Assembly: GCA_009914755.4 (NCBI GenBank)
Contig: CP068257.2
Coordinates: 7,040,001-7,104,000, forward strand
Length of the DNA: 64,000 nucleotides
DNA from: the human T2T-CHM13v2.0 reference genome, Homo sapiens
Direction: 5' to 3'
A model generated the notes under the pieces. That model did no database searches and was not told the origin of the DNA. It saw nothing but the letters and a program-made list of their open reading frames with translations. A program made the translations under genes and the position numbers. Shown piece by piece: positions 26,493 through 40,635 of the stretch (the stretch's first letter is position 1; every line of letters begins with the position of its first letter).

Positions 26493-26725
26493 CCACAGAG
26501 AGTACGAGAGGCAGGAGACATCTCCCAAGTCCAAGTTCAACTTCTATATTATTAGACAGGGCCTCAGTGTCTTTGAACTGCAAGGAATTAATATTGATTG
26601 TAGCATGAGTAAAACCTATCTTCTACTCATCATGAAAAGTCACAGTCGTTTTGTTTAAAGACTCCAGAATTATTATAGGCAGAAACAAGAAGGTTACACA
26701 CCTATTTGGTGAAACAAGGAATCAG
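26493..26725 (+). repeat. Low-copy repeat unit 'D', copy 1
   Basis: Direct match to 40788-40990 ('cacagagagt(a/g)c(g/a)agaggc(a/g)ggag..atctcccaa(g/a)tccaagttc...attagaca(g/t)ggcctca(g/c)tgtc(t/c)ttga(a/t)ctgcaaggaatt(a/t)ata(t/c)tgatt...catcatgaaaagtca...gattccagaattatta(t/g)aggcagaaacaa'). An inverted copy lies at 42228-42395. Confidence 0.8.
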
Positions 26726-27960
26726 GAATCCCCAAGAGAATACAATTACAAAAGTAAAACCACCTAGAGTTTTTGGGCTGATTAAAAAACCCAGAAAGAA
26801 GTGCCAAAAGAGAAAATAATCAAATTCAGTGGAAAAACTCACTTGAAGGTGTCATGGTCAGCTGGGTTTCCACCCCTTTGTTGCACTTCAAATCCTGTGT
26901 ATTCTACAAAGACTTGCTCCTTTCTAAAGGCTATGGTTGACGTTCAACAGAATAGCAGCAACCACCATGAGCCTGAGGGCTGGCTAGTCTTTAGTATTCT
27001 GCCTTATTCAAAGAAACGATCATTTCCCTCATTCCTAAAAATATCCCAGGTCCATTACAAAAAAAGCAGCAGCAGCCAGGCGCAGTGGCTCACACCTGTA
27101 ATCCCAGCAATTTGGGAGGCCAAGGGGGGAGGATCACCTGAGGTCGAGAGTTCAAGACCAGCCTGGCCAACATGGTGAAACCCTGACTCTACTAAAAATA
27201 CAAAAATCAGCCGGGTGTGGTGGTGTGTGCCTGTAATCCCAGCTACTAGGGAGGCTGAGGCAGGAGAATTGCTTGAACTCGGGAAGTGGAGGTTGCAGTG
27301 AGCCAAGATCATGCCACTGCACTCCAGCCTGTGGGACAGAGCAAGACCCTGTCTCAAAAAAAAAAATTCTTACCTCCTGGAAGTATTTTCCTAGTGTTGG
27401 TTTCTATTTGACATTAAACACTTCGCCAGGCCAGTGCATTAGCTGTTAGCTCCTTACTGAATATTATCTGCAGCAAACAGTAGCTGACTCCTCGCTCTCT
27501 TCAGTGAACTTGAATTTAAATTTATAGAATTCTCATGACTTCTATTTCATCTTGAAACCCAGAGACTCCTTCCCTTTCCTAGTGATTTACCTTTCAATTA
27601 TAGGTAGACTGAACCAGTCCCAGCCGGCCTTAGTTGGTCTCTATTCAAACACTGTACTTTTGTTTCTTGATTACATCTTCAATTATTTTAGTTATTTCTG
27701 AGATTCTCCTCTGTAATTTCTCCAACTCTCTAGGGCATAAAGAGTGCATGAATAACATTATGAAGGCTGTGAGACTTCAAATAAATGAGTAGCCTTTCTG
27801 AGCCTCAGTTTTCTCCTCTGTAAACCAGGAATAATTTTTACTGAACAAATTTGTTCTAAGGATTAGTGAAATGTATGTAAAGCACTTAGCATTTAATAGG
27901 TGATCAAATGGTAAATGGTGCTTATAAAATGTCTTTATCATGGTAAAGTATATATAACAA
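26715..27960 (+). repeat. Segmental inverted-duplication arm 'I' (left copy), includes the Alu at 27073-27367
   Basis: Reverse complement of 39372-40635. For example, 27380 '...cttacctcctggaagtattttcctagtgttggtttctatttgacattaaacacttc(g/c)ccaggccagtgcattagc(t/a)gttagctccttactgaatattatctg(c/t)agcaaacagtagctgactcct...' matches the RC of 39840-39960. I estimate ~90-95% identity by eye. Confidence 0.85.
27073..27367 (+). mobile_element. Alu (AluS-like), full length, inside duplication arm I
   Basis: cagccaggcgcagtggctcacacctgtaatcccagcaatttgggaggccaagggggga...cactccagcctgtgggacagagcaagaccctgtctcaaaaaaaaaaa. Confidence 0.95.
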
Positions 27961-28088
27961 TATACATATATATACATGTATATACATGTGTATATATATA
28001 TGTATATATGTATATATGTATATATGTGTATATATATATGTATGTGTGTGTGTATATATATATATATATATATATACATATATATATT
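27948..28088. repeat. Compound (TA)n/(TG)n/(CATA)n microsatellite
   Basis: tatacatatatatacatgtatatacatgtgtatatatatatgtatatatgtatatatgtatatatgtgtatatatatatgtatgtgtgtgtgtatatatatatatatatatatatacatatatatatt. It forms the right boundary of duplication arm I. Confidence 0.9.
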
Positions 28089-28369
28089 GAGATGGAGGCT
28101 TGCTCTGTCACCAGACTGGAGTGCAGTAGTGGGGCGATCTTGGCTCACTGCAAACTCTGCCTCCCAGGTTCAAGGATTCTCCTGCCTCAGCCTCCTAAGT
28201 AGCTGGGATTACAGGCACCTGCCGCCACACTTAGTGAATTTTTATATTTTTAGTAGAGACGGGGTTTCACCAAGTTGGCCAGGATGGTCTCTATCTCTTG
28301 ACCTCGTGATCTGCCTGCCTCAGCCTCCCAAAGTGCTGGGATTACAGGTGTGAGCCACCGTGCCCAGCC
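28089..28369 (-). mobile_element. Alu, antisense, full length
   Basis: gagatggaggcttgctctgtcaccagactggagtgcagtagtggggcgatcttggctcactgcaaactctgcctcccaggttcaagg...cctcccaaagtgctgggattacaggtgtgagccaccgtgcccagcc. Confidence 0.95.
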
Positions 28370-28548
28370 CGATTTTAACCAGTCTTAAGTGTGCAGTTAT
28401 TGGCATTAAGTGCATTCATGTTGTTGTACAACCATCACCACCATCCATCTCTAGAACATTCTCATCATCCCGAAGTGAAACTCTGTACCCAGTAAGCAAT
28501 AAGCCCTCATTCCTCTCTACCCCAGCCTCTGGCAACCACCAAACTACC

Positions 28549-28845
28549 TTTTTTTTTTTCTTTTTTCTGACAGGGTCTCCCTCTGTCGCCCAGGTTGGAG
28601 TACAGTGGCATGATCAAAGTTCACTGAAAGCTTGAACTCCCAGATTCGAGTGATCCAACCCACCTCAGCCTCCCTAGTAGTTGGGACTACGGGTATGTTC
28701 CACCACACCTGACTTTTCTTTTTAAAGTAGAGATGAGGTCTCACTATGTTGTCTAGCCTGGTCTTGAACTCTTGGGCTGAAGCGATCCTCCTGCCTTATC
28801 CTTCCAAGATGTTGGGATTACAGGAATGAGCCACTGAGCCTGACT
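28549..28845 (-). mobile_element. Alu, antisense, full length, diverged
   Basis: tttttttttttcttttttctgacagggtctccctctgtcgcccaggttggagtacagtggcatgatcaaagttcactgaaagc...ccttccaagatgttgggattacaggaatgagccactgagcctgac. Confidence 0.9.
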
Positions 28846-38535: not shown

Positions 38536-38544
38536 GGGAGAAAA

Positions 38545-38870
38545 AACCGTATTTATTCTCTCGTATTTTCTGTGGGTCAGGAATTTGGGCACAACTCAAC
38601 TGGGTTCACTGCATAGGGTCTCACAAGGTTGCAGGCAAGGCGTCAGCTGAGCTAGGTTCAAGCTCATTCATGTTGTTGACAAAATTCATTTCCTTATGTC
38701 TGTATGATTGTGTAGATATGTTTTTTATTGGGTATTGGCTGGAGGCCACCCTCAGGTCCTAGACACCACCTGCTGTTGGGCTTCCTCAATATGGTCACAC
38801 ACTTCCTCAAATCAGCAAGGAGAATCTTGTGTGCATGCCAGCTATATGTCTATCTCATATCCTAATGTAT
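38545..38870 (+). mobile_element. Ancient interspersed repeat (family not determined), split by the L1 and Alu insertion; left part at 37640-37744
   Basis: 'ttctgtgggtcaggaatttgggcacaactcaactgggttcactgcatagggtctcacaaggttgcaggcaaggcgtcagctgagctaggttcaagctcattcatgttgttgacaaaattcatttccttatg...' is a recognisable dispersed-repeat consensus. The same 'ttctgtgggtcagga' motif lies at 37720. Confidence 0.4.
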
Positions 38871-38916
38871 GTCTCTCTCCTCCTCCTCCTCTCCTCTTCC
38901 CTCTCCTTTCTTCTGT

Positions 38917-38946
38917 GCACACACACACACACACACACACACACAT
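38917..38946. repeat. (CA)n microsatellite preceded by a (CT)-rich tract
   Basis: cacacacacacacacacacacacacacaca, with ctctctcctcctcctcctctcctcttccctctcc upstream. Confidence 0.9.
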
Positions 38947-39371
38947 ATCCCAGGAGTAACAACCCATCACATTTGCAATATTATGTCAGTTAGAAACAAG
39001 TCACAGATCCTACCTACACTCACTCGATTTCATCCAAAAGTTTGGGCAGTGATCCCATCCACACTAAAAAAGGAAGAGATCATACAGAGCATAACACCAA
39101 GACATCGAGATCATGGGAAACATCTTAGAAGTCTGCCTATCACAGATAATAAATTCTTGTTGTTGTTTGAAGACATTAAGTTTCAGGTAATTTCTTATGC
39201 AGCAATAGATAACTAATTAGTAAGAGTTGTGCCTAACTAGGCACAAGTTAGAATATAAGGAGTGAAGAGTTATCACTATAGATCCTACAGATACTAAAAA
39301 GATAAGAGTTTGTTTTACTATAAGCAAGCCTATCACAATAAGACAATTTAGATTAAAATGCTGGTAAATTT

Positions 39372-40635
39372 TATACTTTGTATATTTTACCATGATAAAA
39401 ACATTTTATAAGCATCACTTACCATTTGATCACTTATTAAATGCTAAGTGCTTTACTTACATTTCACTAATCCTTAGAACAACTTTGTTCAGTAAAAATT
39501 ATTCCTGGTTTACAGAGGAGAAAACTGAGGCTCAGAAAGGCTACTCATTTATTTGAGGTCTCACAGCCTTCATAATGTTATTCATGCACTCTTTATGCCC
39601 TACAGAGTTGGAGAAATTGCAGGGGAGAATCTCAGAAATAACTAAAATAATTGAAGATGTAATCAAGAAACAAAATACAGTGTTTGAATAGAGACCAACT
39701 AAAGACGGCTCTGACTGGTTCAGTCTACATATAATTGAAAGGTAAATCACTAGGAAAAGGAAGAAATCTCTAGGTTTCAAGATGAAATAGAAGTCATGAG
39801 AATTCTATAAATTTAAATTCAAGTTCACTGAAGAGAGCTAGGAGTCAGCTACTGTTTGCTACAGATAATATTCAGTAAGGAGCTAACTGCTAATGCACTG
39901 GCCTGGGGAAGTGTTTAATGTCAAATAGAAACCAACACTAGGAAAATACTTCCAGGAGGTAAGAATTTTTTTTTTTTTTTGAGACAGAGTCTTGCTCTGT
40001 CCCCAAGGCTGGAATGCAGTGGCATGATCTTGGCTCACTGCAACCTCCACTTCCCAGGTTCAAGCAATTCTCCTGCCTCAGCCTCCCTAGTAGCTGGGAT
40101 TACAGGCACACACCACCATGCCCAGCTGATTTTTCTAGTTTTAATAGAGATGCAGTTTCACCATGTTGGCCAGGGTGGTCTCAAACTCCTGATCTCAGGT
40201 GATCTGCCCGACTTGGCCTCTCAAAGAGTTGGGATTACAGGCATGAGCCACTGCACCTAGCTGCTCCTTCTTTTTTTGTAATGGACCTGGGAGATCTTTA
40301 GGAATGAGGGAAAGTCTCATTTCTTTGAGTAGGGCAGAATATTAAAGACTAGCCAGCCTTCAGGCTTATGGTGGTTGCTGCTATTCTGTTGAACGTAAAC
40401 CATAGCCTTTAGAAAGGAGCAAGTCTTTGTGGGATACACAGGATTTGAAGTGCATCAAAGGGGTGGAAACCCTGCTGACCATGATACCCTCAAGTGAGTT
40501 TTTCCACTGAATTTGATTATTTTCTCATTTGGCACTTCTTTCTGGGCTTTTTAAGCAGCCCCAAAGCTCTAGGTGATTTTACTTTTGTAATTGTATTCTC
40601 TTGGGAATGCTCATTCCTGATTGTTTCAGTAAACA
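39372..40635 (-). repeat. Segmental inverted-duplication arm I' (right copy), includes the Alu at 39966-40262
   Basis: Reverse complement of 26715-27960 (see arm I). Homology ends at 39372, exactly where the left copy enters its compound microsatellite. Confidence 0.85.
39966..40262 (-). mobile_element. Alu, antisense; paralog of the Alu at 27073-27367 within the inverted duplication
   Basis: tttttttttttttgagacagagtcttgctctgtccccaaggctggaatgcagtggcatgatcttggctcactgcaacctccacttcccagg...tctcaaagagttgggattacaggcatgagccactgcacctagc. Confidence 0.95.

What the first reader, a model, noticed from the sequence alone, without database searches (positions are those of the whole stretch)
26493..40635. 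Inverted segmental duplication (~1.25-kb arms, ~11.4 kb apart) that includes an Alu and ends at a microsatellite
26715-27960 is the reverse complement of 39372-40635. Each copy contains the same full-length Alu (27073-27367 + and 39966-40262 -), so the duplication postdates that Alu insertion. One breakpoint coincides exactly with the compound (TA/TG)n tract at 27948-28088, and the other with an Alu fragment at 40634-40700. I estimate ~90-95% identity by eye, so the duplication is not very recent. Inverted low-copy repeats like this can mediate inversion of the intervening ~11 kb.
Basis: seen in the sequence. Interest (0 to 1): 0.65.

Follow-up and report, generated by a model that had tools for sequence, protein, structure and literature searches.

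The report
Old inverted 1.3-kb duplication, primate pericentromere
A 1.3-kb piece of ordinary repeat-rich primate DNA was copied long ago in reverse orientation to a site about 12 kb away; the copy is real but it is a common kind of genomic scar with no sign of function.

Summary
26702-27952 (+) matches 40636-39381 (reverse complement) at 92.0% over about 1,260 columns. Both copies carry the same AluSx at the same site, with 18 shared derived changes.

The interpretation needs three corrections.

1. The (TA/TG)n tract is not a breakpoint. It is the decayed tail of a second AluSx (28087-28369, minus strand) that inserted into the left copy after the duplication. The right copy keeps the empty site. 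The duplicated unit really ends about 46 bp inside the 3' terminus of an old L1.

2. That L1 continues only on the left, so the left copy is most likely the source and the right copy the inserted one.

3. The "Alu fragment" at 40632-40699 is a truncated AluJ. It belongs to an older duplicated L1/Alu unit, and the copy was joined into it.

Divergence is mosaic: 17% in 26990-27219 against about 5% elsewhere. This fits later gene conversion between the arms.

Human-derived metagenome contigs carry both arm types with their own outer flanks, so the duplication is old and the region is multi-copy. Two contigs show the flank combination expected for an inverted spacer, but these contigs are demonstrably chimeric at repeats.

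There are no RNA-family or Pfam hits. The feature is ordinary and of low interest.

The parts
26702..27959 (+). Left arm, inferred to be the source copy. It holds about 16 bp of the neighbouring L1-ORF2-derived piece, then unique DNA, AluSx, unique DNA, MIR, and the last bases of an old L1 3' end.
   Evidence: continuity with both flanks
39353..40636 (-). Right arm, inferred to be the inserted, derived copy. It is the reverse complement of the left arm and includes the uninterrupted last ~46 bp of the L1 3' end (39353-39401).
   Evidence: its inner flank at <=39352 is unrelated to the left L1 3'UTR (z -0.2)
27074..27367 (+). AluSx-like element inside the left arm. It was inserted before the duplication.
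   Evidence: 18 derived changes shared with the right-arm Alu
39966..40262 (-). The same AluSx-like element inside the right arm.
27766..27891 (-). MIR fragment inside the left arm. Its counterpart in the right arm is 39442-39567 (+).
26990..27219 (.). High-divergence patch between the arms: 40 mismatches in 230 bp (17.4%), against 4.8% elsewhere. It is read as the least gene-converted part of the arms.
   Evidence: LLR 18.1; 0 of 200 permutations reach it
27960..28086 (.). (TA)n/(TG)n microsatellite. It grew from the A-tail of the Alu at 28087-28369 and from the TA-rich L1 terminus. It is absent from the right copy.
28087..28369 (-). A second AluSx-like element, inserted into the left copy after the duplication. 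Its 5' target-site copy is 'AAAATCG' after TT. The right copy keeps the empty site 'TT|AAAATGCTGG'.
28372..28537 (-). 3'UTR of an old L1 (L1MA/B-like), consensus positions 1-167. It is colinear with the L1 terminus at 27934-27959 across the Alu insertion, which shows that the left copy is continuous with the spacer.
   Evidence: 84.4% over 167 bp, E 5e-43; the L1 body continues at 28841-28915 and 29921-30124
28370..39352 (.). Spacer of about 11 kb. It holds old L1 fragments, seven Alus, a MIR and simple repeats. No protein or RNA family was detected.
40632..40699 (-). Truncated AluJ (consensus positions ~156-222) to which the right copy is joined. There is a possible 4-bp overlap (GCTG) at the junction.
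26494..26717 (+). X_left, an old L1-ORF2-derived piece flanking the left arm and running about 16 bp into it. It is a paralogue of 40789-41010 (+) and 42377-42233 (-) at about 83%.
40700..41189 (+). L1-ORF2-derived pieces P1 (40700-40788) and P2 (40789-41189) flanking the right arm. They are the target-side context of the inserted copy.

Best explanation
This is a genuine, old, non-functional inverted intrachromosomal duplication in a satellite-flanked, Alu- and L1-rich primate region.

What was copied. The ~1.3-kb segment comprised the last ~16 bp of an L1-ORF2-derived piece, unique DNA, an AluSx, more unique DNA, a MIR, and the last ~46 bp of a neighbouring old L1. It was copied from the left site and inserted in reverse orientation about 11-12 kb downstream. 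The copy was joined on one side to unrelated sequence (39352|39353) and on the other to a truncated AluJ (about 40632-40636).

Mechanism (inferred, not shown). There is no poly(A) tail, no target-site duplication, and at most a few bases of junction overlap. The most likely route is therefore a repair or replication template switch: an MMBIR/FoSTeS-type or synthesis-dependent templated insertion. An older short-spacer inverted repeat lies 188 bp from the insertion site and may have provoked the break.

Later events.
1. A second AluSx inserted about 10-20 bp inside the inner end of the left copy. Its tail grew into the (TA/TG)n tract, which hides the true boundary.
2. Gene conversion between the arms homogenised most of their length and left a 230-bp patch of high divergence.
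3. The whole region was further duplicated into a family of paralogues.

Shown: the duplication itself, the shared Alu, the order of the two Alu insertions, L1 continuity on the left only, and the mosaic divergence. Inferred: direction of copying on the outer side, the molecular mechanism, gene conversion, and dating (roughly within the period of AluS activity, tens of millions of years ago).
For: Duplication and shared Alu.

Source versus copy:
- On the right it hits only positions 161-206 (39353-39401).
- The right inner flank shows no similarity to the left L1 3'UTR.
- An old LINE-3'-end-like motif in that flank ends at about 39218, which is 134 bp short of the junction.

Outer side: homology with the X family runs through 26702 to about 26717, and the right arm end carries the same ~16 bp.

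Post-duplication Alu and microsatellite.

No poly(A) tail or target-site duplication at either end of the right copy.

Mosaic divergence:
- 17.4% against 4.8%, with 0 of 200 permutations reaching the observed contrast.
- left Alu monomer has 4 shared against about 26 private changes; right monomer has 14 shared against about 9 private.

Both arm types occur with their own outer flanks in independent human-derived contigs. There are 36 shared left/right-split sites in 26735-27219 and none in 27220-27890.

No function signal: Rfam; Pfam; the left-arm ORF is broken in the right arm.
Against: - No RepeatMasker or Dfam library was available. The strong hits show they are real families, but subfamily names are approximate.
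- The outer-side continuity rests on only about 16 bp at about 75% identity.
- Junction microhomology cannot be trusted after about 5-10% divergence.
- If the right inner flank were an in-register L1 3'UTR of another subfamily, the event could instead be homology-driven between two inverted L1 ends. L1 continuity on the left would then not identify the source.
- The mosaic divergence could partly reflect local hypermutation, for example error-prone synthesis at the time of copying, rather than gene conversion.
- The absence of shared left/right-split sites in the middle zone could partly be an artefact if contigs L001 and L009 are chimeras that switch copies inside the arm.
- No outgroup genome was available to show the empty target site.
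Confidence: 0.7

Rival explanations
1. Homology-driven event between two inverted old L1 3' ends (NAHR, break-induced replication or long-tract gene conversion). Each site originally had its own L1 end, and the 1.25-kb flank of one was copied next to the other. Either copy, including the right one, could then be the source.
For: Both arms end in the same L1 3' terminus. The right inner flank does contain old LINE-3'-end-like sequence in the same orientation (39144-39218). The arms show signs of later sequence exchange.
Against: The right flank next to the junction (39219-39352) has no detectable similarity to the L1 3'UTR upstream of position 161. The LINE-like motif there ends 134 bp before the junction, at the same point where an independent copy of that repeat ends. 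Only about 46 bp of homology would have been available.
Confidence: 0.12
2. Footprint of an inversion made by staggered breaks. The 11-kb spacer was inverted and the single-stranded overhang was filled in, leaving the same segment in inverted orientation at both ends.
For: The layout (inverted duplicates exactly flanking a segment) is what that model produces (established for Drosophila inversions, from general knowledge).
Against: The model needs one copy to be continuous only with the outside flank and the other only with the inverted segment. Here the left copy is continuous on both sides: the L1 runs into the spacer and X-family homology runs across 26702. The right copy is discontinuous on the inner side. 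The predicted continuation of the X piece next to 39352 is absent.
Confidence: 0.05
3. Retrotransposition: an L1 3' transduction, or a retrocopy of a read-through transcript that starts in the L1 end and runs through the 1.25-kb flank.
For: The right copy begins with a short, 5'-truncated piece of an L1 3' end followed by that L1's downstream flank. This is the anatomy of a 3' transduction. An AGTAAA hexamer lies a few bases before its end.
Against: There is no A-rich tract at the end of the copy, although the Alu tails inside the arms are still 11-15 A long. No target-site duplication is present. The L1 is an old, decayed type (84% identity to consensus), whereas the transduced segment already contained an AluS.
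Confidence: 0.03
4. Not a real duplication: chance, Alu-to-Alu similarity only, two copies of a composite interspersed repeat, or an assembly artefact.
For: The region is very repeat-rich and lies between satellite arrays. The arms belong to a multi-copy family in other genomes.
Against: The non-Alu flanks match at 90-96% with E = 0. The Alu sits at the same position with shared derived changes. The 8% divergence is not what a collapsed or duplicated assembly gives. Independent contigs carry left-type arms with the left outer flank and right-type arms with the right outer flank.
Confidence: 0.02

Closest known systems
Small inverted low-copy repeats / segmental duplications flanking short segments, as catalogued genome-wide and as found at polymorphic human inversions (e.g. 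HsInv0114: 2.7-kb inverted repeats made of L2, MLT1, AluSq, L3 and MIRb, 14.7-kb inversion; HsInv0347: 1.6-kb THE1C repeats, 7.1-kb inversion; PMC3961182)
   Same: Inverted orientation, kilobase size, about 10-kb spacer, and arms built from unique DNA plus old transposon pieces including an AluS and a MIR. There are signs of exchange between the arms.
   Different: The arms here are shorter and more diverged: 92%, with a longest identical run of 73 bp. In the known cases exchange maps to stretches of very high identity, for example 782 bp at 99.9% in HsInv0209. The alternative orientation is not demonstrated here.
The more than 610,000 inverted intrachromosomal repeat pairs (>=200 bp, >=80% identity) per human assembly, enriched on acrocentric short arms and the Y chromosome in T2T-CHM13 (PMC11794170)
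   Same: The pair meets those criteria easily, and it lies in a satellite-flanked region of the kind where such pairs are most numerous.
   Different: Nothing of note. This pair is simply one of a very large class.
Templated insertions and inverted duplications from replication template switching (FoSTeS/MMBIR) or synthesis-dependent break repair
   Same: A short segment was copied from nearby in inverted orientation. There is no poly(A) tail or target-site duplication, at most a few bases of junction overlap, and an older inverted repeat lies next to the insertion site.
   Different: These mechanisms are defined on fresh events with intact junctions. Here the junctions have decayed, so membership cannot be proved.
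Palindrome arms kept similar by arm-to-arm gene conversion (e.g. Y-chromosome palindromes; general knowledge)
   Same: Divergence is mosaic, with long stretches much more alike than a 230-bp patch.
   Different: The arms are a thousand-fold shorter, homogenisation is partial and old, and no genes are involved.

Membership tests
Segmental duplication (low-copy repeat), standard definition (general knowledge) | Aligned length of at least 1 kb | tested here: met
   1258 aligned columns. About 1.28 kb when the L1 terminus retained in the right copy is counted.
Segmental duplication (low-copy repeat), standard definition (general knowledge) | Identity of at least 90% | tested here: met
   92.0%
Segmental duplication (low-copy repeat), standard definition (general knowledge) | Not merely copies of a high-copy interspersed repeat | tested here: met
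   The Alu-masked flanks match only each other in the window. The same Alu sits at the same site with 18 shared derived changes.
Inverted-repeat substrate of NAHR inversions | Two copies in inverted orientation on one chromosome flanking a segment | tested here: met
Inverted-repeat substrate of NAHR inversions | A long tract of near-perfect identity in which exchange can occur | tested here: not met
   The longest identical run is 73 bp. The best 100-bp windows reach 98-99%.
Inverted-repeat substrate of NAHR inversions | Both orientations of the spacer observed, with paralogous variants exchanged between arms | tested here: inconclusive
   Contigs L001 and L009 join the left outer flank and left-type outer arm to the right-type inner end and right inner flank. 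However, the contigs are chimeric at repeats, and the reciprocal junction was not seen.
Inversion by staggered breaks with flanking inverted duplication | One copy continuous only with the outer flank, the other only with the inverted segment | tested here: not met
   The left copy is continuous on both sides. The right copy is discontinuous on its inner side.
L1 3' transduction / retrocopy | Poly(A) tail at the 3' end of the inserted copy | tested here: not met
   There is no A-rich tract at about 40636.
L1 3' transduction / retrocopy | Target-site duplication flanking the inserted copy | tested here: not met
   No repeat is shared between the sequences next to 39353 and 40636.
Microhomology-mediated template switch (FoSTeS/MMBIR) or templated break repair | Microhomology or short insertions at both junctions | tested here: inconclusive
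   There is a possible 4-bp GCTG overlap at the outer junction and none callable at the inner junction. The junctions are too diverged for a firm call.
Microhomology-mediated template switch (FoSTeS/MMBIR) or templated break repair | Ancestral empty target site | not testable with these tools
   No outgroup primate genome is available in the collections offered.

The most novel reading that the evidence does not exclude
The two arms are still, or were until recently, recombining. On this reading the ~11-kb spacer exists in both orientations among the paralogous copies or haplotypes of this satellite-flanked region. Contigs L001 and L009 would then be true recombinant junctions, so 1.3-kb arms of about 92% overall identity would be sustaining recurrent flipping and gene conversion in a multi-copy pericentromeric duplicon.

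A related possibility concerns how the structure arose. The whole 13.9-kb block with its 1.25-kb terminal inverted repeats may have been laid down in one fold-back repair event inside an older tandemly duplicated L1/Alu unit. Both outer flanks look like parts of that unit, and about 250 bp of it is missing.
Probability: 0.2. Interest if true: 0.35.

Novelty: new member of a known kind. Interest (0 to 1): 0.15.

Why it matters
It matters little on its own. It is one more small inverted duplication of the kind that is counted in the hundreds of thousands per human assembly and is especially common next to satellites.

Its modest value is as a worked example:
- An apparent "breakpoint at a microsatellite" can be a later Alu insertion that hides the true boundary.
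- The second copy can serve as the empty site that orders the events.
- Mosaic divergence warns against dating such duplications from a single average identity.

If the spacer really flips among paralogues, it would add a small, diverged inverted repeat to the list of substrates for recurrent inversion. It would also be a trap for assembly and variant calling in pericentromeric sequence.

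Tried and rejected
1. Alu-only similarity: rejected by the Alu-masked self-comparison.

2. A second inverted pair seen in the window (728-1765 against 14849-13795). It is explained as ordinary young L1 ORF2 copies and is not related to this finding.

3. The Alu fragment at 40632-40699 as a templated "filler" at the junction: rejected. Together with the next ~85 bp it is a direct paralogue of 41279-41339 plus 41635-41719.

4. Extension of the duplication into the spacer: rejected. The left L1 3'UTR and the right inner flank show no similarity.

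5. Staggered-break inversion, in both mirror versions: rejected on flank continuity.

6. L1 3' transduction or retrocopy: rejected, because there is no poly(A) tail or target-site duplication.

7. Gene conversion of the right-arm Alu by another Alu subfamily as the cause of the divergent patch: rejected. The private changes do not match AluJ or AluY diagnostic bases, and the patch extends 84 bp into non-Alu DNA.

8. An excess of right-copy private changes (22 against 13) as a sign of error-prone copying: a hand calculation gives p of about 0.13, not significant, so no claim is made.

9. Sites where both window arms agree against all contigs, as proof of concerted evolution: only 1-3 such sites, too few.

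10. Coding or RNA function: no Pfam hits for ten ORFs, no Rfam hits in 26000-41500, and the 125-aa left-arm ORF has stops in the right arm.

11. Fetching the same locus from other assemblies by exact ORF product: nothing on record.

12. Using the metagenome contigs to prove inversion: judged unsafe, because their extensions beyond Alu or microsatellite edges are unrelated to the window and to each other.

Full report
**1. The observation**

A self-comparison of 26000-28500 against the whole window gives one outstanding non-self hit. It is 26702-27952 (+) against 40636-39381 (reverse complement): 92.05% identity over 1258 columns, 1809 bits, E = 0. All other hits are Alu-to-Alu matches at 70-85%.

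The repeat finder reports the same pair as three colinear blocks of 90%, 95% and 96%. MAFFT aligns it end to end.

After masking, the two non-Alu flanks still match only each other: 26702-27073 against 40636-40263 at 90.4%, and 27363-27952 against 39969-39381 at 95.8%.

The Alu inside the arms (27074-27367 +; about 39966-40262 -) scores best as AluSx. A three-way alignment with the consensus shows 18 derived changes shared by both copies, 13 private to the left and 22 private to the right. The two Alus are therefore one insertion that was later duplicated with its flanks.

**2. Context**

- The window is primate DNA with 41 Alu segments covering 15% of it.
- It carries a 5-kb (ATTCC)n array at 2266-7315.
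- A 68/69-bp array with about 70 copies lies at 7491-12233.
- A (GGAAT)n array in the opposite orientation runs from 61756 to the window end.
- The finding thus lies in a ~46-kb non-satellite island of pericentromeric or acrocentric type.
- Such regions are known to be patchworks of duplications (general knowledge).
- A published survey counts more than 610,000 inverted intrachromosomal repeat pairs of >=200 bp and >=80% identity per human assembly. They are in excess on acrocentric short arms and the Y chromosome in T2T-CHM13 (PMC11794170).

**3. The inner boundary is not the microsatellite**

The (TA/TG)n tract (27949-28087) directly abuts the 3' end of a minus-strand AluSx at 28087-28369. 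It sits exactly where that Alu's tail should be.

| L1 consensus positions | Window coordinates | Strand | Identity |
|---|---|---|---|
| 1-167 | 28537-28372 | - | 84%, E 5e-43 |
| 179-204 | 27959-27934 | - | 84.6% over 26 bp (E 0.03) |
| 161-206 | 39353-39401 | + | 84% |

On the left, one L1 3' end is therefore split by the Alu plus its tract. On the right, the last ~46 bp of the same L1 end are present and uninterrupted: 'TTAAAATGCTGGTAAATTTTATACTTTGTATATTTTACCATGATAAAAAC'.

The left sequence just before the Alu reads 'GGTT AAAATCG', and the right copy reads 'GATT AAAATGCTGG'. This is a TT|AAAA-type insertion site with the right copy as the empty site.

The second AluSx and the microsatellite are therefore later additions inside the left copy. 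The duplicated unit really ends at about L1 position 161, which is left about 28372-28378 and right 39353.

**4. Which copy is the source**

*Inner side.* Beyond position 161 the left copy continues as L1 3'UTR and further L1 body, interrupted by another Alu (28841-28915, 29921-30124). The right inner flank has no similarity to it (local alignment score at the shuffle mean, z -0.2; no hit).

That flank does hold an old LINE-3'-end-like motif at 39144-39218 in the same orientation. The motif ends 134 bp short of the junction. This is the same point where an independent copy of that repeat ends at about 35072. I therefore do not read it as a continuous L1.

*Outer side.* The left arm is preceded by an L1-ORF2-derived piece, X_left (26494-26717). 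It has paralogues at 40789-41189 (+) and 42389-42024 (-) with about 83% identity. tblastn places these at ORF2 residues ~433-496.

Homology with those paralogues runs through 26702 to about 26717. The reverse complement of the right arm end carries the same ~16 bp: 'GCTGTTTACTGAAACAA' against 'CTATTTGGTGAAACAA'.

*Conclusion.* The left copy is thus continuous with both of its flanks, clearly on the inner side and only suggestively on the outer side. The right copy has two novel junctions, so left is the source and right is the inserted copy.

**5. The Alu fragment at the right outer end**

The segment 40632-40699 is an AluJ piece (consensus positions ~156-222, minus strand). It is not junction filler.

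From 40653 through 40785 it is a direct paralogue, by eye about 88% identical in the alignment. Its partner is 41279-41339 plus 41635-41719, that is, an AluJ inserted in an L1-ORF2 piece and later split by an AluY at 41340-41634.

The right copy was therefore joined into a pre-existing AluJ, with a possible 4-bp overlap (GCTG).

Three further observations remain unexplained:
- X_left begins at exactly the same position as its paralogue P2 (26494 corresponds to 40789).
- The AluJ-plus-P1 piece lies directly upstream of P2.
- So both outer flanks of the inverted pair look like the two ends of one older tandemly duplicated unit, from which about 250 bp are missing.

I record this as unexplained. 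It allows, but does not prove, a single complex event that placed the whole 13.9-kb block there.

An older short-spacer inverted duplication lies only 188 bp from the right arm. It comprises 40824-41339 against 42389-41901, at 82.6% and 92% identity, with a 561-bp spacer of which 295 bp is AluY. Such structures are break-prone (general knowledge), and this one may have provoked the event.

**6. Mechanism**

- The right copy has no poly(A) tract and no target-site duplication. The Alu tails inside the arms are still 11-15 A long. Retrotransposition, including L1 3' transduction (which the anatomy superficially resembles), is therefore rejected.
- The staggered-break inversion model predicts that one copy is continuous only outward and the other only inward. 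The observed continuities contradict both mirror versions.
- What remains is a templated, non-homologous or microhomology-level insertion in inverted orientation. This could be a replication template switch (FoSTeS/MMBIR type) or synthesis-dependent repair of a break. This step is inference, because the junctions are too decayed to score microhomology reliably.
- A rival that I cannot fully exclude is an event primed by homology between two inverted old L1 ends.

**7. Divergence is mosaic**

Identity by compartment is 90.05% in the outer flank, 88.1% in the Alu and 95.26% in the inner flank.

A scan for the most deviant segment finds 26990-27219, with 40 mismatches in 230 bp (17.4%) against 4.8% elsewhere. 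The log-likelihood ratio is 18.1, and none of 200 permutations reaches it. The patch includes 84 bp of non-Alu DNA, so CpG decay in the Alu is not the whole story.

Within the Alu the two monomers differ sharply. A hand calculation puts the contrast at p of about 3e-4.

| Alu monomer | Shared derived changes | Private changes |
|---|---|---|
| Left | 4 | about 26 |
| Right | 14 | about 9 |

The simplest reading has two parts. The duplication happened soon after the Alu inserted. Later, most of the arm (but not the patch, nor the innermost ~65 bp) was homogenised by gene conversion between the arms.

A single average identity therefore underestimates the age. The event is bracketed by two AluS insertions, one before and one after. 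This places it within the period of AluS activity, tens of millions of years ago (general knowledge for the dating).

**8. Related sequences**

A 37-bp exact pattern from the arms found 12 metagenome contigs, at least one from a human skin sample.

- They differ from the window by 1.5-3% in mismatches, and from each other by 0.5-4%.
- They therefore represent paralogues (or another species) rather than the same locus. The region belongs to a multi-copy family.
- L001 and L009 carry the left outer flank with left-type bases. L008 carries the right outer flank, colinear from 38411 to 44246, with right-type bases.
- 36 sites in 26735-27219 show this shared left/right split, and none does in 27220-27890.
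- The duplication therefore predates the spread of the family, and both copies are real.
- L012 carries the left-type innermost bases and runs into the microsatellite.

L001 and L009 continue from a left-type outer arm into the right-type inner end and the right inner flank. This is the junction expected if the spacer were inverted by exchange within the arms.

However, the parts of several contigs beyond Alu or microsatellite edges match neither the window nor each other. These assemblies therefore mis-join at repeats. The reciprocal junction was not seen either. I treat inversion as possible but not shown.

**9. Function**

- There are no Rfam hits at gathering thresholds in 26000-41500.
- There are no Pfam hits for ten ORFs from the arms, spacer and neighbourhood.
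- The only sizeable ORF in the left arm is broken by stops in the right arm.
- Nothing suggests a function.

**10. Comparison with what is known**

The pair meets the usual definition of a segmental duplication (>=1 kb, >=90%).

Its closest relatives are the small inverted repeats at polymorphic human inversions. Examples are HsInv0114 (2.7-kb repeats built from L2, MLT1, AluSq, L3 and MIRb; 14.7-kb inversion) and HsInv0347 (1.6-kb THE1C repeats; 7.1-kb inversion) (PMC3961182).

In those cases exchange maps to very similar stretches, for example 782 bp at 99.9%. Here the longest identical run is 73 bp. The pair is a plausible but weak substrate today.

**11. Verdict**

The feature is an ordinary, old, inverted duplicative insertion in a rearrangement-prone satellite-flanked region. 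Novelty is low (a new member of a known kind) and interest is about 0.15.

Limits of this analysis:
- No curated repeat library was available.
- No primate outgroup was available.
- No long-read population data were available.

Noticed in passing
window 2266-7315, 7491-12233, 61756-64000: A 5-kb (ATTCC)n array lies directly next to a 4.7-kb array of a 68/69-bp unit (about 70 copies, beta-satellite-like). At the other end of the window a (GGAAT)n array lies in the opposite orientation. The ~46-kb non-satellite island is therefore bracketed by inverted pentamer satellites.
   Followed up: partly
They account for another inverted pair (728-1765 against 14849-13795, 85%) and a direct pair (1760-2227 against 14863-15334). 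The left L1 is itself made of two oppositely oriented pieces that meet at about 1735-1757.
   Followed up: partly
window 40824-41339 and 41901-42389: An older, short-spacer inverted duplication of an L1-ORF2-derived piece plus an AluJ piece (82.6% and 92% identity). The spacer is 561 bp, of which 295 bp is a later AluY. It lies only 188 bp from the right arm.
   Followed up: partly
window 26494-26717, 40653-40788, 40789-41189, 41279-41339 + 41635-41789: Both outer flanks of the inverted pair look like the two ends of one copy of an older tandemly duplicated L1/AluJ unit. X_left starts at exactly the same position as its paralogue P2, and the AluJ-plus-P1 piece sits just upstream of P2. About 250 bp of that unit is missing, so the whole 13.9-kb block appears to sit inside it. 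This is unexplained.
   Followed up: partly
loci L001-L012: Human-derived metagenome contigs that match the arms differ from the window by 1.5-3% and from each other by up to 4%. This implies several paralogous copies of the region. Several contigs are chimeric, switching to unrelated sequence at Alu or microsatellite edges.
   Followed up: yes
window 49400-50800: A GC-rich block (about 50% GC against about 40% around it) with overlapping long ORFs on both strands (up to 262 aa). None has a Pfam hit. It may be a CpG island.
   Followed up: no
window 15674-15842 and 44182-44350: A 169-bp inverted match at 91.7%. One member lies just after the 3' end of the L1 at 12241-15619, and the other lies next to an Alu. 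It is probably an L1 3'UTR fragment.
   Followed up: no
window 45037-45131: Two tandem copies of a 47-bp unit at 97% identity.
   Followed up: no
window 35072-35162 (-) and 39144-39218 (+): Two copies of an old repeat that end in '...GCAGCAATAG(A/G)AAACT'. It was recognised from memory as a LINE-3'-end-type motif, and both copies end at the same consensus point.
   Followed up: partly
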